Notes: generated by a model not told the origin, from the sequence alone. Shown: positions 1,500 to 44,126, counted from the first letter of the stretch. The stretch: DNA of 64,000 bases from an uncultured Bdellovibrionales bacterium (GCA_964537075.1 CAZIBB010000001.1:19072-83071); one strand, 5' to 3'. Translations and numbers: made by a program.

Positions 1500-2762
1500 C
1501 TAATCTTTCCGCAAAGCCTCCATCGGGGAAAGTTTCGAGGCTGATACAGCCGGAGCGAGACCGAAGATGAGTCCGACAGCCATCGAGAATCCCGCGCCGA
1601 GAAAAAGCGATTGCGCCGTAAAGACGAGTTTGAGATCAAATCCAAATTTGGCAAAAATTAAAGTGAGTAAAAAAACTACCAATACTCCCAAGAGAATGCC
1701 AATAAGCCCGCCAATGCCAGTAATGATGATCGCCTCGGCAAGAAATTGCTGAAGAATCGATATCGACTTCGCACCGAGTGCCTTGCGCAAACCGATTTCA
1801 CTCGTTCGCTCTGACACCGATACATACATGACATTCATAATTCCCACTCCCCCGACCAAAAGCGATATCGAAGTCAGTGCCAATAAGAGAATCGTGATCG
1901 CCCCCAATACATCACCGAGAGTTTTCTGCGCCTCCTTCGTTGAGGTGACAGAAAAATCATCCTTATCCGGATCCTTGATATCATGTCGTTTCCGCATGAG
2001 GGCGACGATATCCGCTACCGTCTCCTGGTCACGCGTCCCATCCTTCATTTTCACGGAAATCATCTGCACATAATCGATGCCGAGAATTTTCGAGAGGAGT
2101 GTCTCGACGGGAATATAGGTCATCGCATCGAGATTGAAAAATGCCGCTGTTCCACGAGGGGCAATCACACCGATTACCCGATATTTCTCCCCTTTGATCG
2201 TGATCATTTCTCCGATGGCATCACTCTCGCCAAAGAAGGTTTCTTTCGTCTCCGATCCGAGCACGGCGACGCGCGCCAAACTCCGATCTTCTTCATCGGT
2301 GAAAAACCGACCAGATTCAAGCTTGATATTCTCATCCACGCTCTGCGCCGAGGCACTCGTTCCAAAGAGTAGAATACGCTTTCCAACCGATCCATAGGTC
2401 GCTCGCTCCTGTCCAATCGTTCCCGCATATACCGCTTCGACATTATTTATTTTTCGAATAGCATCGCTGTCCTTTACGGTAAGCGTCGTAATCTGCGTTC
2501 CCATCGATCTCCCCGAAGCATTTTCCGAAGACATTTTTCCGGTATTCGGAATTTTCACCTCCACCTGAATCAGTTCCGATCCAAAACTCTCCACCTGTCC
2601 GAGTACGAATCCCTTCACCCCTTCACCGAGCGATGTCACGACCACCACCGCGAACACACCTATCACTACTCCGAGCAACGCCAAAAATGTCCGCGCCCGA
2701 TGTGAACGAATCGTTCGAACCGCGAACATGATCGGCATAGAAAATTGTTTCATCTTATTCAT
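1500..2762 (-). CDS. ABC transporter permease, MacB/FtsX family
   Basis: 420 aa. N-terminal TM, periplasmic MacB_PCD-like domain, C-terminal FtsX-type 3-TM bundle. Operon with an ABC ATPase and an HlyD-type adaptor. Confidence 0.85.
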   Translation of the reverse strand: MNKMKQFSMPIMFAVRTIRSHRARTFLALLGVVIGVFAVVVVTSLGEGVKGFVLGQVESFGSELIQVEVKIPNTGKMSSENASGRSMGTQITTLTVKDSDAIRKINNVEAVYAGTIGQERATYGSVGKRILLFGTSASAQSVDENIKLESGRFFTDEEDRSLARVAVLGSETKETFFGESDAIGEMITIKGEKYRVIGVIAPRGTAAFFNLDAMTYIPVETLLSKILGIDYVQMISVKMKDGTRDQETVADIVALMRKRHDIKDPDKDDFSVTSTKEAQKTLGDVLGAITILLLALTSISLLVGGVGIMNVMYVSVSERTSEIGLRKALGAKSISILQQFLAEAIIITGIGGLIGILLGVLVVFLLTLIFAKFGFDLKLVFTAQSLFLGAGFSMAVGLIFGLAPAVSASKLSPMEALRKD

Positions 2763-3996
2763 ATCGCAGTGCTTCCATAGGGCTTACCTTCGACGCCTTA
2801 ATCGCAGGATAGAGACCGAATGCAAGGCCAATCACGAGTGACACGCCGAATCCGATCAGGACGGAGGAGAACGGTACGAGAAATTCCCAATCATAGCCGA
2901 GCTTTGGAATAATGATCGCCGCGATAAAAGAGAGAAAAATGCCAAAAAAAATACCGATAATTCCGCCGGTAACCGTGACGAAGGAAGACTCTATCAGAAA
3001 TTGAGTGATGATGTGGTGGGGTCTCGCGCCGACGGATTTCCGCAGACCAATTTCCCGCACGCGTTGCGATACCGAGATGAGCATAGAGTTCATAATGCCA
3101 ATTCCGCCGACGAGAAGCGAAATGGAGGCGATTGCGATCAGAAAATATTTCAATACATCTGTGATACTGGTCAACACACCGAGAGCGGCTGCGGTATTCC
3201 GTACTGAAAAATCCGCTTCCTCACCCTCTTCGATATCATGCCGATCCCGAAGGAGGCTCGTAATATCCTCCACGGTTCGATCCACATTATCCGGAGTATC
3301 GACCTTTCCTCGGGCAAAATTCAAATAATTGATTCCGAGTAAAAGCTTCTGCGCTGTCTCAAGCGGGACAAAAGCCAATACATCGGGATTTGAAAATGCA
3401 GTGGAACCCCGCTCTTCCAGCACGCCTACTACCCGAAAAGGCATATCCTTTACTTTCACCGTTTCCCCGATAGGGTTGCGATCAGGAAAAAGTTCTTTGG
3501 CACGGGTCGATCCAAGAACAATCACTCGAGAGAGATCACTCTCTTCTTCAGGAAAGAAAAAACGTCCGGAAGCGACATCGATCGATTCCACTTCGATCAT
3601 CTCCGGAGAGACCCCTTGAAAACTGACTTCGAATGATTCTCTCGGTGATTCTATCGTCGCTGATCCGGAAACATACCCTGATACCGCTACGAGATACGGG
3701 ACATTCTGCCTCTCACGTATGGCGTCGAGATCATCATTCATGAGTGTCGTCGTCACTACACCGAATGCGGCAGCCGGCGGACCATCCTCCTCCGAAGCAC
3801 CAGGAAGCACCCCCACGAGATTTGACCCCACCTTCTCAATCTGAGAAAGGATAAGTCTCTGCGCGCTCGCGCCGATGGCCATGACCATGATGACCGAAGC
3901 CACCCCGATCACGATCCCGAGCACCGTCAAGAGAAACCTTGTTTTCGAGGCGATGAGAGAACGATAAGATATTTTTATAGGATCACTGAGTTTCAT
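2755..3996 (-). CDS. ABC transporter permease, MacB/FtsX family (second copy)
   Basis: 413 aa with the same architecture as 1500..2762; the two genes overlap by 8 nt. Confidence 0.85.
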   Translation of the reverse strand: MKLSDPIKISYRSLIASKTRFLLTVLGIVIGVASVIMVMAIGASAQRLILSQIEKVGSNLVGVLPGASEEDGPPAAAFGVVTTTLMNDDLDAIRERQNVPYLVAVSGYVSGSATIESPRESFEVSFQGVSPEMIEVESIDVASGRFFFPEEESDLSRVIVLGSTRAKELFPDRNPIGETVKVKDMPFRVVGVLEERGSTAFSNPDVLAFVPLETAQKLLLGINYLNFARGKVDTPDNVDRTVEDITSLLRDRHDIEEGEEADFSVRNTAAALGVLTSITDVLKYFLIAIASISLLVGGIGIMNSMLISVSQRVREIGLRKSVGARPHHIITQFLIESSFVTVTGGIIGIFFGIFLSFIAAIIIPKLGYDWEFLVPFSSVLIGFGVSLVIGLAFGLYPAIKASKVSPMEALRYE

Positions 3997-4011: not shown

Positions 4012-4051
4012 TTTTGGAGGCTAAACCTCCATGGAGGTTTAGCCTCCAAAA
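4012..4051. repeat. REP-like perfect palindrome TTTTGGAGGCTAAACCTCCATGGAGGTTTAGCCTCCAAAA flanking the transposase 3' end
   Basis: The 32-nt core GGAGGCTAAACCTCC-ATGG-AGGTTTAGCCTCC is its own reverse complement. It abuts the transposase stop codon at 4052-4054. Confidence 0.9.
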
Positions 4052-4711
4052 TTATTCCATCAACAAAGCTCTTTCAATCTGCTTTCTTTCTAAAATTCCA
4101 ATTAGGGAACTCTCTGAAAAATCTTTGTATTCCTCTTGACTGCGGAATTGTCCAAGTACAATATTTTTTTCACAATATTCGCGCTTTGTTTTTCCGATAT
4201 ATTCATTCCAACTTGAACGAGTAAGAATATCATCTTCATATCGATGCACACGAAAATTCAGATTTACATACGCACTCAAGTGCAATAAATATTCATTCGT
4301 TTCAATATGAATTGCCTTGAATGTTCCCTGGAACAGCGAGCCGCTTCGTGTATACTTTTTATTGAAATACATCGTGTATCCTGTACCAAATCGCTGCATA
4401 AACTTCTCCACCCCCTTATCTGAAACCTGCCTAAGAATAAAATGGAAATGATTCGGATTAATGCAGTATGCAATAACCTCAACCAACGGCTCTTCCTTTT
4501 CTTCATCCTTTATAACTACCTTTCCAAAACTTTTTTCATGAGATTTTTTTTCATAAATACTCCCTATAGGATTGAGTGTATTAAATTCAACCATGCTCTG
4601 CAGAAACCTCTCTGCATCAGTCACATCTTCTATAATCATTCTCTTTTCCACTCCACGATTATAAATATGATATACCTCCTCATTTGCAAATATCACTTTT
4701 CTCATAAGCAT
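4052..4711 (-). CDS. REP-associated tyrosine transposase (RAYT; Y1 HUH, IS200-like Y1_Tnp family)
   Basis: N-terminal YHIYNRG, HUH motif NPNHFHFIL, and a GSLFQGTFKAIHIE block comparable to the GxLWQxRYY region of Y1 transposases. The ORF track starts at 4756, inside the palindrome; the likely true start is M at 4711 or 4705 (MLMRKV...). Confidence 0.75.
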   Translation of the reverse strand: MLMRKVIFANEEVYHIYNRGVEKRMIIEDVTDAERFLQSMVEFNTLNPIGSIYEKKSHEKSFGKVVIKDEEKEEPLVEVIAYCINPNHFHFILRQVSDKGVEKFMQRFGTGYTMYFNKKYTRSGSLFQGTFKAIHIETNEYLLHLSAYVNLNFRVHRYEDDILTRSSWNEYIGKTKREYCEKNIVLGQFRSQEEYKDFSESSLIGILERKQIERALLME

Positions 4712-4719
4712 TGACGTTA

Positions 4720-4756
4720 TTTGGAGGCTAAACCTCCATGGAGGTTTAGCCTCCAC
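4720..4756. repeat. REP-like palindrome, second copy, flanking the transposase 5' end
   Basis: TTTGGAGGCTAAACCTCCATGGAGGTTTAGCCTCC, identical core to 4012..4051. Confidence 0.9.
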
Positions 4757-4764
4757 GATTTCAG

Positions 4765-5109
4765 CTACACCTTCGACAGGGAAAAAGCAGCTACGGACAA
4801 AATTCCGAGAATAATTCCTGCCAATTCAAGTAAAGAAAGTTTGTCTCCAAAAAAAGCATATCCGGCAATCGCCACGACGATCATATTAAAAAGAAGTATG
4901 GAATATGATGCCGCCGCAAAATCAACGAAGCGGAGTCGGTATCCATAAATCGAAAGTCCGACGACATAGAGAACGATTGCGAAATAATACCAAACAGCAT
5001 GCGTCTGAAAAAAATCTCCATTCTTTTCAGACCAATACTTCATCAAAAAATCACCAAGAGCAAGCAAAATACCAACAAACAAAAAAATCAATATATGCGA
5101 AAATGCCAT
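4765..5109 (-). CDS. Small 4-TM DMT-superfamily transporter (SMR/EamA/ArnE-like)
   Basis: 114 aa with four predicted TM helices, sitting between the ABC ATPase and the permeases. Confidence 0.5.
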
Positions 5110-5114
5110 AGTCT

Positions 5115-5837
5115 TTATTTCAAAAGTTCATTTTCATCACCTGCAAACCGTCGATTTATGACAAGTTCATCAGAAACGATTTTTCCATCAACCATACGGA
5201 GGATGCGCTTGGCATGCTCGGCGGTGAATGTCTCATGCGTCACGAGGATGATGGTTCGACCGGCGTCATTCAGTTGTTGGAGGATATGCATGACCTGGAG
5301 ACCTGATTTGGAATCGAGGTTGCCGGTCGGTTCGTCGGCAAAAATAATCTCAGGATTATTGACGAGCGCCCGAGCGATAGCAACTCGTTGCTTCTCGCCG
5401 CCCGAAAGCTGATTGGAAAAATACTGCGCGCGGTGAGACATATTGACCGCAACGAGCGCCGCATCCACCCGCGCCTTATTATTCTCCAGCATCTCATCAT
5501 CATACAGGAGCGGAAGCTCGACATTCTCGAATACCGTCGTTTTCGGGAGGAGATTGAATGCCTGAAACACAAAGCCGATTTTCTTATTTCGCAACACAGC
5601 TAATTCATCATCGTCAAATTCACTGATATTCTTCCCCTCGAGAAGATATTCCCCTCCCGTCGAACGATCAAGCAAACCCAAAATCTGCATCAGAGTAGAT
5701 TTCCCCGATCCCGATGGCCCCATGATCGAAATGAATTCCCCTCTCCCAACGGAAAAAGTCACCCCATCCAAGGCTCGCGTCTCAACGCCCTCATTGGCAT
5801 AGACTTTTTCCAAGTTTTTTATGGAGAGGAGAGACAT
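5115..5837 (-). CDS. ABC transporter ATP-binding protein (MacB-type ATPase)
   Basis: Walker [13 protein letters not shown] signature [15 protein letters not shown], Walker [13 protein letters not shown]. Likely start [12 protein letters not shown] at 5837; the ORF track extends to 5894. Confidence 0.9.
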
Positions 5838-5975: not shown

Positions 5976-6971
5976 TTAATTTTTTTGTTTTGCTCCGATA
6001 GTCACTTCATCCCCATCCTTGAGTCCAGATACGATCTCGATCACGCCTTCATCCCCTTCAAGACCGGTCGCTACTTCCATCTTTTCAAAATTATTTTCTC
6101 CACGCCGCACCTCGGCATAGGTGATGCCATCCTCTTTGAAAAGCGCGCGGAACGGTACGATCAGAACATTTTCCCGCTTAGCCGTCTCGATATCGATATT
6201 CGCCGTCATGCCCTCCTTGAGTCGGGTATCAGCATCACTCAAACGGAACTTCACCACATATGAGACCACACCCTGCAGCACCGTGGCTGCCGTATCGATA
6301 TCCGTCGCTTCCGCGGCGAATTTCTCGGAAGTCGAAAAGGCATCGAAGGTCACAATCGCCTTCATGCCGACCTTCACTTTCGCGATATCGGATTCCGGAA
6401 CCCGAGCCTCGATAATGAATTCCTGCGGTTTCGAGATGCGTGCCACTATTTTCCCTGCGGTGACCACCTCGCCCACGCGCGCATCCATCGAGACAACCTG
6501 GCCATCGATCGGGGCGTGGAGTATACCGTTTCGTATCTGAGTGATGAGTCCCGAAACGGCCTCTCTCGATTGTTCCGAGACGAGCTTCTTCGCCAGAATC
6601 GCCTCCGATGTCGAGGAGTGGGACTTTCGTACCGAAAGCTCGTTCGCCTCCGCGATACGCACCGCGAGGCGAGCTTCATTCAGCTGCGATTGGAGTATTG
6701 TCCGGTCGACTGACGCGAGAGGAGCGCCCACCGTGACCGTATCCCCTTCCTTCACATACACCTTATCGATCACGCCGAGACCCTGGAAGGAAAGATCTGA
6801 GTATGACACCGGTACGAGTTCTCCAGTCACGCTCACGGTCTCGATAATCTCCCCTTTCTTCACGGTCTCCGTCGGCACGATGACGACGTTCGTCTTGCTC
6901 CGATAATAGAAATACCCGCCGATAAGGACGATAACGAGAAAGACGATGATAATTTTCTTTTTAGTAAACAT
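5976..6971 (-). CDS. Efflux periplasmic adaptor / membrane fusion protein (HlyD/MacA family)
   Basis: 331 aa. N-terminal TM, biotinyl/lipoyl-like half-motifs, coiled-coil, beta-barrel. First gene of the efflux operon. Confidence 0.85.
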   Translation of the reverse strand: MFTKKKIIIVFLVIVLIGGYFYYRSKTNVVIVPTETVKKGEIIETVSVTGELVPVSYSDLSFQGLGVIDKVYVKEGDTVTVGAPLASVDRTILQSQLNEARLAVRIAEANELSVRKSHSSTSEAILAKKLVSEQSREAVSGLITQIRNGILHAPIDGQVVSMDARVGEVVTAGKIVARISKPQEFIIEARVPESDIAKVKVGMKAIVTFDAFSTSEKFAAEATDIDTAATVLQGVVSYVVKFRLSDADTRLKEGMTANIDIETAKRENVLIVPFRALFKEDGITYAEVRRGENNFEKMEVATGLEGDEGVIEIVSGLKDGDEVTIGAKQKN

Positions 6972-7135: not shown

Positions 7136-7548
7136 TGTTTCGCGGCTTCATCCATGGCGCGATTCGCCTCGGCATCGGCTATCGTATTCAGCTCCCGCCG
7201 CACATGAACGAAAGTCACTTCCTTGAAATCAAGCGAGAGATTCCACACCTCGAAAAAGTATGGCTGGAGCTTCTCATTTTCAATCTTATAGATATGATTC
7301 AATTGCCTCATGGCGAGCTCGCTATCCATCCGACACTCGATATCTACTTTCTTCGCCTTTTCCTTCCCAAGCAAGGCTTTTATTTTCTTCAACCCAAACA
7401 CGATTGCGGCATATTCCGCCTCATTGTTCGTTTTCGTTCCGAGAAATTCTCCAAATCGCTTATCCAGCGTCTCGATATATACCCCTAACGCGGACGGTCC
7501 AGGATTCCCCCGTGATCCGCCATCGCTATACATCACTATCTTTTCCAT
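7120..7548 (-). CDS. rnhA: Ribonuclease HI
   Basis: MEKIVMYSDGGSRGNPGPSALGV...NNEAEYAAIV...NTIADAEANRA match RNase H catalytic motifs. Likely start at 7548. Confidence 0.8.
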   Translation of the reverse strand: MEKIVMYSDGGSRGNPGPSALGVYIETLDKRFGEFLGTKTNNEAEYAAIVFGLKKIKALLGKEKAKKVDIECRMDSELAMRQLNHIYKIENEKLQPYFFEVWNLSLDFKEVTFVHVRRELNTIADAEANRAMDEAAKQSNLF

Positions 7549-7612
7549 AGAGACAGTATAACGTATATTTATGGAAAAGAAAAAGCCACCAAACATGTCG
7601 TTCGATGACCCT

Positions 7613-8017
7613 TTAAGCATACCCTCGTCGCAAGGCGATGTCATTCTCCGCCTCCGCGATATTATTCGCAGATATGACATCAACTATTTTTAATCTTCTC
7701 GATTGAGGTTCCGTAACCCAAGAAATACTCTTACGGTTGCGCAAATGAACAAATATCAGATACTCCGGCGGAATCTCACCTAGGGCAAGCCATGAACTAT
7801 TCCATGGTTCTTTCTCGGGATCGGGTTTCCTCATCTCCCTCGGCGCCTCAGGGGCGCATAAAGCTACATCAACGAAGCCCTCACTCTCCAGGGCAGTAAC
7901 GCGACCGATCCGCCAAGCAAACTGATAGTTTTTTCCGCTGAATATCCTCTTGAGAGATTCTCGGAAAATAACCCAGTCTCCCGGCTGCAATAAAGATTTT
8001 TTTGCCATTTTTATCAA
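7613..8017 (-). CDS. Hypothetical protein
   Basis: 134 aa, no recognisable motif. Confidence 0.35.
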   Translation of the reverse strand: MIKMAKKSLLQPGDWVIFRESLKRIFSGKNYQFAWRIGRVTALESEGFVDVALCAPEAPREMRKPDPEKEPWNSSWLALGEIPPEYLIFVHLRNRKSISWVTEPQSRRLKIVDVISANNIAEAENDIALRRGYA

Positions 8018-8042
8018 ATCCTTCCATGCTGTTGGGAAATAA

Positions 8043-9734
8043 CTATTGCGATCGCATATCCAGTATTTTCAGCTGAAGCGAAGTAACGCCATTCCAGATA
8101 TTCTCCGACAGCTGACATACAGCGGATACTCTATCACCTTCTTTCAAATCCGCAAAGCGTTCCCCGAGAGAAAAAGCGATGGCATCAATACATTTCTCAC
8201 CAGAACGAAAAGCGATTTTCAAGTGTTTTTTTCCATTTCCAACGAAACGAATATTCTCGATAATGAGATTTTCAAGCAAAAATACCGGTTCTGGATTCCC
8301 CTGGCCAAAAGGTGCAAAACCCTGAATCTGAGAGAGGAAATCCATCGTCAAATGAACCGGATCGATACGGATATCGATTGATAATTCCGGCTCGGTCATC
8401 TGATTTGGCAACAGCTCCCGCACCATCATGTCGAACCGATCGCGAAACAACGAGAGATTCTCATTCCTCACGGTCAATCCTGCCGCCTGCGCATGTCCGC
8501 CGAATTTTTCCAGAAGATCCCCGCAGCGCTCGACGACCTCGATGATATTGAGTCCAGGAATGCTCCGAAGAGAGCCCGTGCTATGCTCATCATACTGTTG
8601 GAGCACCACGACCGGTTTCCCAATCTCACGCGCGATAGTACCGGCGACCAAACCAACCACGCCAATCGTGTATTCCGGATGCACGGCGATAATCGATTGA
8701 CGATCTTTTTGCAGACGAGCTTCGGCTCGCACGAGTCCGGAAATCCGCTCGGATAATTTTCGGCGATCATTGTTCAACTGCTCCAATTGATTCGCGAGCA
8801 GATTCGCTTCCGATTGATCAATCGACGAAAGCAAATCATGGGCGATTCTCCCGTGATCCATACGGCTTGCCGCATTGATGCGCGGCCCGATCTGAAATCC
8901 GATAGTCCTCGCATCAGGTTTGTTCCACTCGTCGATTTTCAGTTTCCCCACGGCATACATCTCCTGCAATCCGATATTGCGCGTCTTCGCGAGAACGATA
9001 AGTCCATAGGTCACGATAGCCCGATTCTCGCCGATAAGCGGCATTACATCCGCGACCGTTCCGACCGCCACGAGATCAAGAAGCCATTTCAATTCCCCGC
9101 TCCTCTCAGGCGCGAGCTCCTGATACAGCGCCTGGATCACCTTGAATGTCGTCCCTGCACCGCAGAGTTCCTGAAACGGATAGCCGCAGTCCTTCACCTT
9201 TGGGTTGATAATCGCGAACGCATCCGGAAATATTTTCGGCACATGATGATGATCGATGATGATGACATCCATACCGAGACGATTCGCTTCCGCCACTTCT
9301 TCGATATCCGTCATCCCGCAATCGACCGTAAACATCACGGTCACGCCCTCTTTTTGAAAAGCGATAAGTGCGTTTCGGTGTATCCCATGACCTTCTTTTT
9401 CCTTATGCGGAATATATACCGTCACCAGAAAACCAAGCCGCTCCAAAGCGGTTCGCAAAAGAACCGATGAGGTCACTCCGTCCGCATCATAATCACCGAA
9501 GATACCGATGCGTTCTCCGGAATCAAGAGCTTTCTTCATCCGATCCGTCACTTTCCGCATCGAGACGAATAAAAACGGATCATGGAAATCACGATCATAG
9601 TCCGGACGAAAAAACCGTTCAATTGACGACGCATCGGTATACCCACGATTCGAAAGGAGTGCTTCGGTTATAGGATGATACGGAGTCTTCGCTTCCCGTG
9701 TGGCTGAGTCAATTTTCACTTTCCATTTCGCCAC
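8043..9734 (-). CDS. recJ: Single-stranded-DNA-specific exonuclease RecJ (DHH family)
   Basis: DHH motifs IGIFGDYDADGVTSS, IIIDHHH, GGHAQAAG; 563 aa. Confidence 0.85.
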   Translation of the reverse strand: MAKWKVKIDSATREAKTPYHPITEALLSNRGYTDASSIERFFRPDYDRDFHDPFLFVSMRKVTDRMKKALDSGERIGIFGDYDADGVTSSVLLRTALERLGFLVTVYIPHKEKEGHGIHRNALIAFQKEGVTVMFTVDCGMTDIEEVAEANRLGMDVIIIDHHHVPKIFPDAFAIINPKVKDCGYPFQELCGAGTTFKVIQALYQELAPERSGELKWLLDLVAVGTVADVMPLIGENRAIVTYGLIVLAKTRNIGLQEMYAVGKLKIDEWNKPDARTIGFQIGPRINAASRMDHGRIAHDLLSSIDQSEANLLANQLEQLNNDRRKLSERISGLVRAEARLQKDRQSIIAVHPEYTIGVVGLVAGTIAREIGKPVVVLQQYDEHSTGSLRSIPGLNIIEVVERCGDLLEKFGGHAQAAGLTVRNENLSLFRDRFDMMVRELLPNQMTEPELSIDIRIDPVHLTMDFLSQIQGFAPFGQGNPEPVFLLENLIIENIRFVGNGKKHLKIAFRSGEKCIDAIAFSLGERFADLKEGDRVSAVCQLSENIWNGVTSLQLKILDMRSQ

Positions 9735-12640: not shown

Positions 12641-12664
12641 CGCCTGCCTGCCGGTAGGCAGGCG
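12641..12664. repeat. GC-rich palindrome CGCCTGCCTGCC-GGTA-GGCAGGCAGGCG
   Basis: Perfect 10-bp arms. Same family as 36323..36345 and 37421..37444. Confidence 0.85.
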
Positions 12665-15496: not shown

Positions 15497-15690
15497 TCCA
15501 GTATGATCCTTCGGGGCTCCGCGCGAAAAGAATCGCCAGAAATTCGTGACACCCAAAAGGATAGGTGCTCCAACTGGAGGAAGTGAAACGCCTTTGGAGC
15601 ATCCATACGGCGTGTCACTGAATTTCTCGATTCTTGTCGCAGGAGAGAGTTTCTTTGGCATACTTTTCTTTGCGGACAAAGAAAAGTATG
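15497..15690. repeat. Structured about 190-nt element, copy A (candidate ncRNA or palindromic MITE)
   Basis: Matches the reverse complement of 27371..27585. It folds into a long interrupted helix (AAGAATCG/CGATTCTT, AGAAATTC/GAATTTCT, GTGACAC/GTGTCAC) plus a perfect 10-bp terminal hairpin CTTTTCTTTG-CGGA-CAAAGAAAAG. Confidence 0.6.
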
Positions 15691-25474: not shown

Positions 25475-25490
25475 AGTTTTTGATTATGCA

Positions 25491-25532
25491 TTTTTGGAGG
25501 TCGAACCTCCATGGAGGTTCGACCTCCAAAAA
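25491..25532. repeat. REP-like palindrome, third (orphan) copy, variant GGAGGTCGAACCTCC-ATGG-AGGTTCGACCTCC
   Basis: Same GGAGG...CCTCC-ATGG-GGAGG...CCTCC architecture as the copies flanking the transposase. The loop change CTAAA to TCGAA is mirrored symmetrically in the other half. Confidence 0.85.
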
Positions 25533-26774
25533 TTACTTATACAACGGAAACTGCTTGCATAACACTCGTATATCCTTACGCAACTTGTTACGTAACTTCG
25601 CATCGCCTTTATTCTTCCAGGCGGTATCGATGATACGGGCGATTTCCTTCACTTCACGCTCTTTCATCCCGCGTGTCGTGATCGCTGGAACGCCGATACG
25701 CACCCCACTCGGATCGAGCGGCCCGCGCGGATCATCCGGAATGACATTCTTATTGATGGTGATCCCCACTTCCTCCAATATATATTCCGCTTCCTTTCCA
25801 GTGAGGCCATAGCTCTTCACCGTATCGATCACGATCATATGATTCTCCGTTCCACCGAAGAGAATATACGCGCCGCCCTTATAGAGTTCCTTTTCGAGCA
25901 CCTTCGCATTTTTCAGTGTCTGTTTCGCGTACTTCCTGAACTCTGGTTTCAATGCCTCACCGAATGCCACCGCTTTGGCCGCCACGACGTGCATGTGTGG
26001 CCCTCCCTGCGTTCCCGGGAAAATAGCCTTGTCAATCGCCCTTGCAAATTCTTTCTTGCAGAGAATCATGCCTCCACGCGGTCCGCGCAGCGTCTTGTGC
26101 GTCGTCGCTGTCACGATATCGAAGTGCGGCACCGGACTCGGCAGCGCTTTCCCGGCGATGAGTCCCGCGATATGCGCCATGTCCATCATGGTCAATGCCT
26201 TCACCTTCTTTGCAATCGCGACGAACAACGCATAATCAATCTGCCGGGTATATGAAGAGAATCCCGCGAGCATGAGCTTCGGTTTTTCTTTTCTCGCAAG
26301 CGCTTCCAATTTTTTATAATCGATGCTGCCATCAGGTTCGGTTTTGTACCGAACGAAATTATACACCTTGGCCGGCAAGGTCACCGGATGACCATGCGTC
26401 AGATGTCCGCCATGAGAGAGATCCATGCCGAGCACCGTATCGCCCGGCTGAAGGAGTGCTGCATATACAGCGAGATTCGCCTGCGCCCCCGAATGCGCCT
26501 GCACATTCGCATGTTCCGCTCCGAACAATTTCTTCACGCGATCGAGCGCGAGCGTTTCCGCGACATCCGTCCATTCCTGTCCGCCATAGTACCTTTTCCC
26601 CGGATACCCTTCGGAATATTTGTTCGTGAAGACCGTCCCGAGCGTTTCCATCACCGCCTGCGAGACATAATTCTCCGACGCGATCATTTCCAATCCTTCT
26701 TCCTGCCGTTTTTCTTCGCCCATCACCGCGGCATACACCGCCTTGTCCGCCTTCTTCAGAATATCATGCTTCAT
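25533..26774 (-). CDS. glyA: Serine hydroxymethyltransferase
   Basis: PLP site [12 protein letters not shown] and the GHLTHGH block; 413 aa. Confidence 0.9.
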
Positions 26775-27370: not shown

Positions 27371-27585
27371 TCTTTCATACTTTTCTTTGTCCGCAAAGAA
27401 AAGTAGACAAAAGAAACTCTCTCCTGCGAACAAATCGATAAATTCTTCGACACCCTTATGGAAGCCTCCAAAGGCGCTTCACTTCCTCCAGTTGGAGCTT
27501 CTGTCCTTTTTGGGTGTCGAGAATTTCTAGCGATTCTTTTCGCGCGGAGCCCACGCAGGACCAAGTTTAGAGAAAATAATAAAGG
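27371..27585. repeat. Structured about 190-nt element, copy B (inverted orientation relative to copy A)
   Basis: Reverse complement aligns with 15497..15690. Helix positions carry compensatory changes: GTGACAC/GTGTCAC in A against TCGACAC/GTGTCGA in B. Confidence 0.6.
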
Positions 27586-37344: not shown

Positions 37345-37466
37345 AATTTCGAATTTCGAATTTTTAATTTCGAGTGAATTCTAAATGACTTCATATTTCA
37401 ATCATTCAAAAACTCATCATTCCTGCCTGCCGGCAGGCAGGGATTCAAAATTCGAAATTCGAAATT
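37345..37466. mobile_element. 122-bp mini-element with perfect 20-nt terminal inverted repeats (AATTTCGAATTTCGAATTTT) enclosing a CCTGCCTGCC-GGCAGGCAGG palindrome
   Basis: Left arm 37345-37364, right arm 37447-37466 (exact reverse complement). Internal palindrome 37421-37444. It fills the mraZ-rsmH spacer. Confidence 0.6.
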
Positions 37467-43964: not shown

Positions 43965-44126
43965 TGGTATTAACCCCGGAGCAAGCTCCGGACATTGAAA
44001 CGAGCAAGAGCTCGTTTCAATTTCGCGGTCCCGCCATGGCGGGACGAGGTATTTACCCATATGTTACCGTCACTCGCTCGAAAGTGAAAGTAAGAACTTT
44101 CACTTTACTCACTCGCTAGGTAATAA
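43965..44126. ncRNA. Candidate structured RNA, family S2 copy 2
   Basis: See copy 1. Hairpins CCGGAG-CAAG-CTCCGG, TTGAAACGAGC-AAGA-GCTCGTTTCAA, AGTGAAAG-TAAGAA-CTTTCACT. It fills the tsaC-rarA spacer, ending 7 nt before the rarA ATG. Confidence 0.5.

What the first reader, a model, noticed from the sequence alone, without database searches (positions are those of the whole stretch)
4012..4756. Tyrosine HUH transposase (RAYT/IS200-like) bracketed exactly by two perfect REP-like palindromes, inserted inside a MacAB-type efflux operon
The 220-aa ORF has the motifs of Y1 HUH transposases of the REP-associated (RAYT) / IS200-like type: YHIYNRG, HFHFIL and GSLFQGTF. It is bounded at both ends, to the nucleotide, by the same 32-40-nt perfect palindrome GGAGGCTAAACCTCC-ATGG-AGGTTTAGCCTCC. 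It sits between the small DMT transporter gene and the two permease genes of the HlyD-ABC-permease operon, all on the same strand. It may therefore have split the operon or created a new processing point. This looks like a RAYT/REP-type system in a lineage where such systems are not, to my knowledge, commonly described.
Basis: partly seen in the sequence, partly recalled or inferred. Interest (0 to 1): 0.7.

Follow-up and report, generated by a model that had tools for sequence, protein, structure and literature searches.

The report
RAYT-like transposase gene with cognate palindromes
A small gene for a single-strand-DNA-cutting enzyme of the REP-associated (RAYT-like) transposase type sits between two identical hairpin-forming palindromes inside an efflux-pump operon of an ultra-small (Patescibacteria) bacterium. 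It belongs to a large family, not described in any paper I could search, in which the same palindrome also occurs in-frame inside the enzyme's own gene and inside other genes.

Summary
A 217-aa minus-strand gene (4052-4705) passes the Pfam Y1_Tnp threshold. Its predicted fold matches E. coli TnpA-REP bound to a REP hairpin best. Two identical 32-nt perfect palindromes bracket it (none expected by chance), and a third, related palindrome lies at 25490-25533.

It is not a recent insertion. Two relatives carry an orthologue at the same ABC|MacB junction. Other relatives have that junction empty, or filled by an EmrE-like gene or a 23S_rRNA_IVP gene.

The protein belongs to a large Patescibacteria family (1,094 cluster representatives at E<=1e-30). 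In 68 genes from 79 loci, one genome-specific perfect palindrome (consensus ACTTGG-N10-11-CCAAGT) recurs at four fixed places:
- upstream of the start codon (82%)
- in-frame before the HUH motif (57%)
- in-frame after the catalytic tyrosine (49%)
- at the stop codon (82%)

Paralogues within one genome carry different palindromes (7 of 7 pairs). Dispersed copies are few and often lie inside other genes.

Best reading: a REPtron-like unit, that is, a RAYT-like nuclease with its cognate REP-like hairpins. It lacks the canonical GTAG foot, the NP of the tyrosine motif and a high copy number. In-frame REPs inside RAYT genes are already known (subclass 2.4). I rate it a new variant of a known kind; enzyme activity is untested.

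The parts
4052..4705 (-). Y1 HUH (RAYT-like) nuclease/transposase gene, 217 aa. HUH motif is NHFHF; catalytic-Tyr motif is SAYVNLN.
   Evidence: Pfam PF01797 at 31.2 bits against a cut-off of 23. Identical to P0001. Invariant H87, H89 and Y147 in alignment A1. AF2 model pLDDT 84, pTM 0.82. Best PDB fold match is 4er8_A, TnpA-REP bound to a REP hairpin.
4722..4755 (.). Upstream cognate palindrome, 34 nt and perfect. It is a doublet of two inverted units, TGGAGG-CTAAA-CCTCCA and TGGAGG-TTTAG-CCTCCA. It ends 16-17 nt before the ATG.
   Evidence: DNA hairpin -16.7 kcal/mol, z = -7.8. It occupies the same place as the 'UP' palindrome found in 82% of family members.
4012..4051 (.). Downstream cognate palindrome, 40 nt and perfect, with the same 32-nt core. 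It abuts the stop codon and lies 15 nt before the MacB start.
   Evidence: DNA hairpin -19.8 kcal/mol, z = -8.5. It occupies the same place as the 'DOWN' palindrome found in 82% of family members.
4505..4534 (-). Decayed relic of the in-frame internal palindrome 'IN1'. It encodes KSFGKVVIKD and aligns with the hairpin-encoded KKLGGLASKE of the orthologue in L085.
   Evidence: Sequence, alignments and the L085 hairpin CTTGGAGGTTTAGCCTCTAAG. It falls in the low-confidence loop 51-69 of the model.
25490..25533 (.). Dispersed related palindrome, 44 nt and perfect, with the same outer arms and CCATGG centre but inner 5-mer TCGAA/TTCGA. It is intergenic, between the SHMT stop and the nucleotidyl-transferase start.
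   Evidence: DNA hairpin -22.8 kcal/mol, z = -10.5. The inner 5-mer equals that of the hairpins in L002.
4765..5109 (-). EmrE/EamA-like 114-aa ORF just upstream of the unit. It is a second variable occupant of the same operon junction and is not part of the palindrome-bracketed unit.
   Evidence: Pfam EamA below cut-off, 22.6 bits against 28.2. Only 5 homologues were found. It sits alone at the same junction in L086-L089 and elsewhere in L090.
2755..3996 (-). MacB-type permease gene, the downstream neighbour. It defines the ABC|MacB junction.
   Evidence: Pfam MacB_PCD plus FtsX. Orthologues are 72-90% identical in relatives.
5115..5837 (-). ABC ATPase gene of the operon, the upstream side of the junction. 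The mechanical ORF extends to 5894.
   Evidence: Pfam ABC_tran. 80% identical to the L002 orthologue, with the alignment starting at residue 20.

Best explanation
This is a REPtron-like unit. A RAYT-like Y1 HUH single-strand-DNA endonuclease/ligase gene is bracketed by its own cognate, hairpin-forming palindromes. It belongs to a large Patescibacteria-specific family.

Inferred mechanism, by analogy with E. coli TnpA-REP and IS608 TnpA: when the DNA is single-stranded, for example on the lagging-strand template, the palindrome folds into a hairpin. The enzyme binds it, then cuts and rejoins nearby through a 5'-phosphotyrosine link (Y147) with the HUH-bound metal. This would copy or move the short palindromes, and perhaps the whole unit.

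The copy in this window is an old resident of a junction (ABC ATPase | MacB permease) that turns over small genes in this lineage. It has lost the two in-frame internal palindromes typical of the family. Its flanking hairpins have become inverted doublets, like REPINs.

Shown here: the protein family and fold, the catalytic motifs, the palindrome architecture, pairing of each paralogue with its own palindrome, insertion polymorphisms, and variable site occupancy. Inferred: binding, cleavage, the transposition chemistry and any effect on the operon mRNA.
For: Protein:
- Pfam Y1_Tnp passed.
- HUH histidines and the tyrosine are invariant in 33 homologues.
- Confident AF2 model. Its best PDB match is TnpA-REP bound to a REP hairpin, 4er8_A, E = 2.3e-4, ahead of ISDra2 and IS608 TnpA.
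- The tyrosine motif is Y-x-x-x-N, as in class 2 (RAYT), not the Y-x-x-x-Q of IS200 (Table 1 of PMC6006769).

Cognate palindromes:
- Identical palindromes flank the gene.
- Across 68 family genes, perfect hairpins with stems of at least 8 bp sit at four fixed places in 49-82% of genes. Background is 0.048 per 100 nt.
- The innermost 7 nt of the arm are identical in 78% of within-gene pairs and in 1.4% of between-gene pairs.
- Seven of seven paralogue pairs in one genome carry different palindromes. This is the 'each tnpAREP has its own REP family' rule (PMC6006769).

Mobility of the palindromes:
- A 14-aa insertion in GatB and a 9-aa insertion in GatA, relative to orthologues.
- Window-type hairpins are found at about six sites away from any Y1 gene in metagenomes.
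- A third copy lies in the window.

RAYT-like population behaviour:
- One copy in 64 kb.
- Orthologues sit at the same junction in L002 and L085, with Y1 identities (63-69%) following the flanking-gene grouping.
- No relatives in IMG/VR.

Doublets like the window's occur in L025, L035, L072, L077, L079 and L093.
Against: - No biochemical evidence exists for this family.
- The NCBIfam RayT equivalog scores 24.7 bits against a cut-off of 80.
- A PDB sequence search with the family profile finds no Y1 structure.
- The palindromes have no GT[AG]G foot and no conserved flank motif that could mark a cleavage site.
- The P of the class-2 'Y---NP' motif is absent.
- Copy number is low. There is one extra related palindrome in 64 kb and 24 cognate copies in 951 kb of flanks across the family.
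- The exact doublet was found in no other genome or metagenome.
- Loop orientation among copies is random. This gives no strand polarity of the kind IS200-type chemistry uses.
Confidence: 0.7

Rival explanations
1. An autonomous IS200/IS605-type insertion sequence. The gene plus the two hairpins would be the mobile unit. It would excise precisely as a single-stranded circle and insert at a preferred target in front of macB.
For: - Y1 fold.
- Hairpins at both ends.
- Patchy occupancy of one junction among close relatives, including a seamless empty site in L084, TAG-A-ATG.
- Members of the same subclade (P0005, P0006) lie in unrelated contexts.
- The gene's GC is below that of its flanks in 65 of 65 loci.
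Against: - No second copy in 64 kb.
- The nearest homologues among 5.8 billion proteins are only 64-67% identical, not near-identical copies.
- Both ends carry the same perfect palindrome rather than distinct imperfect left and right ends.
- Hairpin orientation is random.
- The tyrosine motif is Y---N, not Y---Q, and the protein is 217 aa with a C-terminal helical region instead of a core of about 150 aa (PMC6006769 Table 1).
- No tnpB gene is adjacent.
- Paralogues in one genome are 48-62% identical.
Confidence: 0.12
2. A domesticated host gene whose palindromes are regulatory or structural elements. They could be operators or mRNA hairpins for autoregulation, processing or stability within the operon. 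Nothing would be mobile any longer.
For: - Fixed positions relative to the start codon (median -28) and the stop codon (median +16), and at two fixed in-frame sites.
- The same junction is occupied in relatives.
- Same strand as the operon, with no terminator-like sites.
- RAYTs in general are argued to be domesticated (PMC5581495).
Against: - Cognate palindromes occur as lineage-specific in-frame insertions in GatB and GatA, and at other sites far from any Y1 gene.
- The junction is empty or differently occupied in close relatives.
- In the window the internal copies have decayed while the gene stays intact, so they are dispensable.
- No Rfam family matches.
Confidence: 0.13
3. The palindromes are generic terminators, or a chance or assembly artefact, unrelated to the gene.
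For: They are stable hairpins between genes. The window holds other intergenic palindrome families.
Against: - T runs precede the hairpin and A runs follow it on both strands. No terminator-like hit lies at either site.
- An independent ENA assembly has the same arrangement.
- The gene-palindrome association recurs in more than 60 loci, with paralogue-specific sequences.
Confidence: 0.02

Closest known systems
REPtrons: RAYT / TnpA-REP genes flanked by their REPs or REPINs (E. coli TnpA-REP, PDB 4ER8; class 2 of Quentin et al. 2018, PMC6006769)
   Same: - Y1 HUH enzyme with a Y-x-x-x-N tyrosine motif.
- Best structural match.
- Gene bracketed by cognate hairpin palindromes.
- Inverted doublets, like REPINs.
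- Each paralogue has its own palindrome family.
- Low gene copy number and signs of vertical inheritance.
   Different: - No GT[AG]G foot.
- The palindromes are perfect and have a conserved outer stem, ACTTGG/CCAAGT.
- The P of 'NP' is missing.
- Below the NCBIfam RayT cut-off.
- Palindrome copy number looks low.
- The host is Patescibacteria, for which I found no published description.
Subclass 2.4 RAYTs (Bertels group 4), with REPs inserted in-frame inside the tnpAREP gene (PMC6006769, section 12)
   Same: Cognate palindromes lie inside the transposase gene without breaking the frame, in surface loops. REPs also lie inside unrelated genes (also Di Nocera et al. 2013, PMC3733652).
   Different: [quoted passage not shown]
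- Here there are two fixed sites, one before HUH and one just after the tyrosine motif. They bracket the catalytic core and occur in 49-57% of genes.
- The window copy has lost both.
Subclass 2.1 RAYTs / TIRYTs (Bertels group 1; Di Nocera et al. 2013)
   Same: Nearest motif signature in Table 1 of PMC6006769 (NH[YF]H, FQ, Y[IV]HLNP, median 238 aa). Compare NH[FY]H, LFQG, YVNLN and about 217 aa here. Both have an extra C-terminal region.
   Different: - Subclass 2.1 is reported to have no REP-like sequences, or to have TIRs with GGGGWSAS.
- This family has short perfect palindromes at four places.
- Membership could not be tested because the subclass HMMs are not available here.
IS200/IS605 TnpA (IS608, ISDra2)
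   Same: HUH/Y1 fold. Hairpins at both ends. Presumed single-strand chemistry.
   Different: - Y---Q motif and a core of about 150 aa.
- Distinct left and right ends.
- Multicopy, near-identical elements.
- Frequent tnpB partner.
None of these was seen here.
Rickettsia palindromic elements (RPE) and other intragenic REPs
   Same: Palindromic repeats inserted in-frame in housekeeping genes (PMC3733652).
   Different: RPEs are longer and have no known cognate transposase next to them. Here the elements are 21-44 nt, and each type is tied to a Y1 gene.

Membership tests
Pfam Y1_Tnp (PF01797) | Score at or above the gathering threshold | tested here: met
   31.2 bits against a cut-off of 23, residues 71-149.
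HUH Y1 nucleases | HUH metal-binding motif and a single catalytic tyrosine on the following helix | tested here: met
   N86-H87-F-H89 and S145-x-Y147-x-N149-L-N151 are invariant in 33 sequences. The fold matches 4er8, 2xm3 and 2vjv.
RAYT / TnpA-REP (class 2, Quentin et al. 2018) | Tyrosine motif Y-x-x-x-N-P | tested here: inconclusive
   Y147-V-N-L-N151 is conserved, but the next residue is F, D, N or Y, not P (Table 1 of PMC6006769).
RAYT / TnpA-REP | NCBIfam NF047646 equivalog cut-off | tested here: not met
   24.7 bits against a cut-off of 80.
RAYT / TnpA-REP | Gene flanked by cognate hairpin repeats (REPtron arrangement) | tested here: met
   Identical palindromes at 4722-4755 and 4012-4051. 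UP and DOWN hairpins are each present in 82% of 68 family genes.
RAYT / TnpA-REP | Each paralogue is associated with its own repeat family | tested here: met
   Seven of seven within-genome pairs have different palindromes. Arm identity is 78% within genes and 1.4% between genes.
RAYT / TnpA-REP | REP has a 5' GT[AG]G tetranucleotide at the foot of the hairpin | tested here: not met
   The consensus is ACTTGG-N10-11-CCAAGT with no conserved flank. The window arms are TTTTGGAGG...CCTCCAAAA.
RAYT / TnpA-REP | Repeats dispersed in many copies through the genome | tested here: inconclusive
   One extra related copy in 64 kb. 24 cognate copies in 951 kb of flanks. Nine of 10 metagenome hits are not next to a Y1 gene. 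The whole genome is not available.
RAYT / TnpA-REP | Low gene copy number and mostly vertical inheritance | tested here: inconclusive
   Single copy in the window. Orthologues sit at the same junction in L002 and L085. However, the junction is empty or differently filled in closer relatives, and subclade members lie elsewhere.
IS200/IS605 (subclass 1.1) | Y-x-x-x-Q motif and a core-only protein of about 150 aa | tested here: not met
   Y-x-x-x-N, and 217 aa with C-terminal helices 167-217.
IS200/IS605 (subclass 1.1) | Multiple near-identical copies per genome; distinct imperfect left- and right-end hairpins; often tnpB | tested here: not met
   One copy in 64 kb. Paralogues elsewhere are 48-62% identical. 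Both ends carry the same perfect palindrome, and orientation is random. No tnpB-like neighbour.
TIRYT / subclass 2.1 | Motif signature NH[YF]H - FQ - Y[IV]HLNP with a C-terminal HTH-like domain; flanking TIRs (GGGGWSAS) or no repeats | tested here: inconclusive
   The motifs resemble it (against Table 1). The flanking repeats do not. The HTH domain and the subclass HMM were not testable.

The most novel reading that the evidence does not exclude
The family-wide layout may be more than REP insertion into tolerant loops. One genome-specific palindrome sits upstream, at the stop codon, and in-frame at two fixed sites that bracket the catalytic core, and all copies are kept identical within a gene. 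The enzyme could act on its own gene through these hairpins, by autoregulation, hairpin-templated gene conversion or module exchange. The same elements could be a general source of in-frame peptide insertions in the gene-dense genomes of Patescibacteria. That would be a self-targeting REPtron type with a role in proteome evolution.
Probability: 0.2. Interest if true: 0.75.

Novelty: new variant of a known kind. Interest (0 to 1): 0.55.

Why it matters
RAYT/REP systems have been studied almost only in Proteobacteria, Cyanobacteria and Bacteroidetes. This result places a large, distinct RAYT-like family in Patescibacteria: 1,094 cluster representatives at 50% identity with E<=1e-30. Its hairpins are short, perfect, lack GTAG and are easy to recognise.

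Each paralogue comes with its own palindrome, and the palindromes differ among genomes by fully compensated changes. The family is therefore a natural data set for working out how Y1 enzymes read hairpins.

The frequent in-frame copies, in the enzyme's own gene and in GatA, GatB and other ORFs, suggest that in tiny genomes with little intergenic space such elements survive inside coding sequence and add peptide loops to proteins.

For annotation, the element marks a junction in a conserved efflux operon where small genes come and go.

Tried and rejected
- Scanned GTDB species genomes and JGI metagenomes for the doublet GGAGG-N5-CCTCCATGGAGG-N5-CCTCC. No hits, so the source genome's copy number could not be counted.
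- Rfam at the gathering threshold over the whole window: nothing.
- PHROGs: nothing.
- PDB sequence search with the family profile: only noise.
- IMG/VR scan with the family alignment: no relatives.
- PLSDB tblastn: only 23-38% identical 'transposase' hits.
- Terminator and promoter scan: no terminator at either palindrome, and promoter-like sites at the chance level.
- Looked for a fixed relative orientation of the four palindromes, as a polarity clue. It is about 50:50 for every pair.
- Looked for a conserved motif beside the hairpins, as a possible cleavage site. None found.
- Looked for relic palindromes in the EmrE-MacB spacers of L086 and L088 and at the empty site of L084. None found.
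- Considered that the GGAGG/CCTCC arms act as Shine-Dalgarno or anti-SD elements. Rejected, because they lie about 15-30 nt from the start codons and are only one lineage's variant of a variable inner stem.
- Literature searches for RAYT, REPtron or TnpAREP together with Patescibacteria, CPR or Parcubacteria returned nothing relevant.

Full report
**1. What is in the window**

On the minus strand the gene order is:
- HlyD-type adaptor, 5976-6971
- ABC ATPase, 5115-5837
- a 114-aa EmrE/EamA-like ORF, 4765-5109
- a Y1 gene, 4052-4705
- two MacB-type permeases, 2755-3996 and 1500-2762

The 32-mer GGAGGCTAAACCTCCATGGAGGTTTAGCCTCC occurs at 4016-4047 and 4723-4754 and nowhere else. None was found in 100 shuffles. 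The perfect palindromes extend to 40 nt (4012-4051) and 34 nt (4722-4755). As single-stranded DNA they fold at -19.8 and -16.7 kcal/mol, z = -8.5 and -7.8.

Each palindrome is an inverted doublet of a unit TGGAGG-N5-CCTCCA. The downstream palindrome abuts the stop codon. The upstream one ends 16-17 nt before the ATG at 4703-4705, which is the start used for the database protein P0001 (217 aa) and fits the family's MRKxxF N-terminus.

A third palindrome at 25490-25533 has the same outer arms and CCATGG centre but another inner 5-mer (TCGAA/TTCGA). It lies in the 58-nt spacer between the SHMT and nucleotidyl-transferase genes. A lenient search found no further family members in the 64 kb. An independent ENA assembly shows the same arrangement.

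**2. The protein**

It passes Pfam Y1_Tnp at 31.2 bits against a cut-off of 23. It scores only 24.7 bits against the cut-off of 80 for the NCBIfam RayT equivalog.

In an alignment of 33 homologues, H87 and H89 (NHFHF), the LFQG motif, and S145, Y147, N149 and N151 (SAYVNLN) are invariant. A profile search of PDB sequences finds nothing.

The AF2 model is confident (pLDDT 84, pTM 0.82). Only residues 51-69 are disordered. Its best PDB match is 4er8_A, E. coli TnpA-REP bound to a REP hairpin (E = 2.3e-4, probability 1.0), followed by ISDra2 and IS608 TnpA.

The Y-x-x-x-N spacing is that of class 2 (RAYT) proteins, not the Y-x-x-x-Q of IS200 transposases, although the proline of 'NP' is missing (Table 1 of PMC6006769). 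The motif combination NH[FY]H / FQ / YVNLN and the length are closest to that paper's subclass 2.1.

**3. The family**

The word-indexed search returned 4,990 hits, the best at 55-67% identity. Where hits are named, they come from Patescibacteria: Moranbacteria, Giovannonibacteria and others. The exhaustive profile search found 1,094 cluster representatives at E<=1e-30 and 11,116 at E<=1e-10. I analysed the 79 loci that were kept. There are no relatives in IMG/VR.

**4. The family-wide architecture (the main new result)**

A scan for perfect hairpins shows one genome-specific palindrome, usually 21-35 nt, with consensus ACTTGG-N10-11-CCAAGT. It recurs at four fixed places in and around the gene. 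Frequencies are for 68 genes:

| Place | Position | Genes with a stem of at least 8 bp |
|---|---|---|
| UP | median 28 nt before the ATG | 82% |
| IN1 | in-frame, before the HUH strand; encodes peptides such as LGGSTSK | 57% |
| IN2 | in-frame, 40 nt after the tyrosine codon | 49% |
| DOWN | median 16 nt past the gene end | 82% |

- All four places are occupied in 18 genes. Only UP and DOWN are occupied, as in the window, in 8 genes.
- Background density is 0.048 such hairpins per 100 nt.
- The outer stem is conserved. The inner stem and loop differ between genomes with full compensation.
- This compensation is visible in the proteins. 'LGG..SK' changes to 'LRG..SQ' or 'LRSEAPK', and the two internal peptides within one protein match each other.
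- The innermost 7 nt of the arm are identical in 78% of within-gene pairs and in 1.4% of between-gene pairs.
- Paralogues in one genome are 48-62% identical. All seven pairs carry different palindromes.
- Loop orientation among copies is about 50:50.
- The gene's GC is lower than its flanks in 65 of 65 loci, median 34% against 44%. I cannot explain this.

**5. The palindromes move**

Cognate copies away from the gene are few: 24 in 951 kb. Several lie inside other genes. Alignment with orthologues shows a 14-aa insertion in GatB of L025, encoded by a doublet, and a 9-aa insertion in GatA of L072.

The window-type unit TTGGAGG-CTAAA-CCTCCAA occurs in 10 JGI contigs. Only one lies beside a Y1 gene. 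The rest represent about six distinct sites, five of them inside long ORFs, and some are doublets. The ORFs were called mechanically and are not verified genes.

**6. History of this copy**

The organism is a Moranbacteria-like Patescibacterium. The ABC|MacB junction is occupied as follows in relatives:

| Locus | MacB identity to the window | Occupant of the junction |
|---|---|---|
| L002 | 75% | Y1 gene |
| L085 | 82% | Y1 gene |
| L082, L083 | 90%, 85% | 23S_rRNA_IVP gene with its own inverted repeats |
| L086-L089 | not computed | EmrE-like ORF alone |
| L084 | 83% | empty (TAG-A-ATG) |

- The three Y1 proteins at this junction are 63-69% identical, and their grouping follows the flanking genes.
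- L085 has single hairpins with the same inner 5-mer as the window (CTAAA/TTTAG).
- L002 has the TCGAA variant seen at the window's third site.
- The window's IN1 region (KSFGKVVIKD) aligns with the hairpin-encoded KKLGGLASKE of L085, so it is a decayed relic.
- Two members of the same subclade, P0005 and P0006, lie in unrelated contexts yet carry ACTTGGAGG-N5-CCTCCAAGT hairpins.

The unit is therefore old at this junction. I cannot decide between one ancient insertion with later losses or replacements and repeated insertion at a hot spot.

**7. Comparison with what is known**

- REPtrons are RAYT genes flanked by cognate REPs, with one REP family per paralogue. REPINs are inverted doublets. 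Intragenic REPs are also established (PMC6006769; PMC3733652; PMC5581495).
- The present family shares the logic but differs in several ways: no GT[AG]G foot, perfect palindromes with a conserved ACTTGG stem, two fixed internal sites bracketing the catalytic core, low copy number, a subclass-2.1-like motif signature, and a host phylum for which my searches found no description.
- I therefore rate it a new variant of a known kind.

**8. Mechanism and limits**

The proposed chemistry is inferred from homology and from the co-variation of gene and palindrome. It comprises hairpin formation in single-stranded DNA, recognition by the Y1 enzyme, and cleavage and rejoining through Y147. Nothing here shows activity.

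The effect on the efflux operon is unknown. The unit is co-oriented with the operon and no terminator-like site is present. Read-through with a structured RNA segment is therefore plausible but untested.

Noticed in passing
window 15659-15690 and 27378-27405: A second family of intergenic perfect palindromes, TACTTTTCTTTG-[CGGA/TCCG]-CAAAGAAAAGTA. There are two copies with the centre flipped.
   Followed up: no
window 12641-12664 and 37422-37441: A third intergenic palindrome family, CCTGCCTGCC-GG(TA)-GGCAGGCAGG, with two copies.
   Followed up: no
window 43994-44021; L004 9316-9339: The palindrome TTGAAACGAGC-AAGA-GCTCGTTTCAA in the window shares its stem with TGAAACGAGC-TTAA-GCTCGTTTCA in another Moranbacteria genome. 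This may be a further conserved hairpin family.
   Followed up: no
L082 3555-4000 and L083 3555-4000 (the same ABC|MacB junction in the closest relatives): A 120-aa PF05635 (23S_rRNA_IVP, four-helix-bundle) gene occupies the junction instead of the Y1 gene. It is bracketed by its own inverted repeats, AGATTGCAGATTG... and ...CAATCTGCAATCT. This looks like another small cassette using the same landing site.
   Followed up: partly
window 4765-5109: The EmrE/EamA-like 114-aa ORF has only five homologues among 5.8 billion proteins. In relatives it sits alone at the same junction (L086-L089), or between YchF and GroEL (L090). Its GC is as low as that of the Y1 gene.
   Followed up: partly
65 loci of the family (L002-L081 and the window): The Y1 gene is more AT-rich than its flanks in 65 of 65 loci, median 34% against 44% GC (40% against 59% in L002). 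So GC-rich palindromes sit in an AT-rich gene body. The cause is unknown.
   Followed up: partly
L007 6287-8843: An Avd-like ORF (6530-6844) plus a reverse-transcriptase ORF (7240-8496) look like a diversity-generating retroelement. Hairpins of the ACTTGG family with different inner stems lie at 6287, 6820, 7198 and 8821.
   Followed up: no
window 1-64000: No Rfam family reaches its gathering score anywhere in the 64 kb.
   Followed up: no
L077 9956-10230: A family member with window-like inverted doublets (TGGAAGTCGAACTTCCA-CGA-TGGAAGTTCGACTTCCA). One lies upstream and one is in-frame inside the gene.
   Followed up: partly
L097 1600-1640: One dispersed window-type hairpin is flanked by GTAG...CTAC with a 2-nt bulge (GTAGCT-TTGGAGGCTAAACCTCCAA-CTAC). 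This is the only GTAG-like foot I saw.
   Followed up: no
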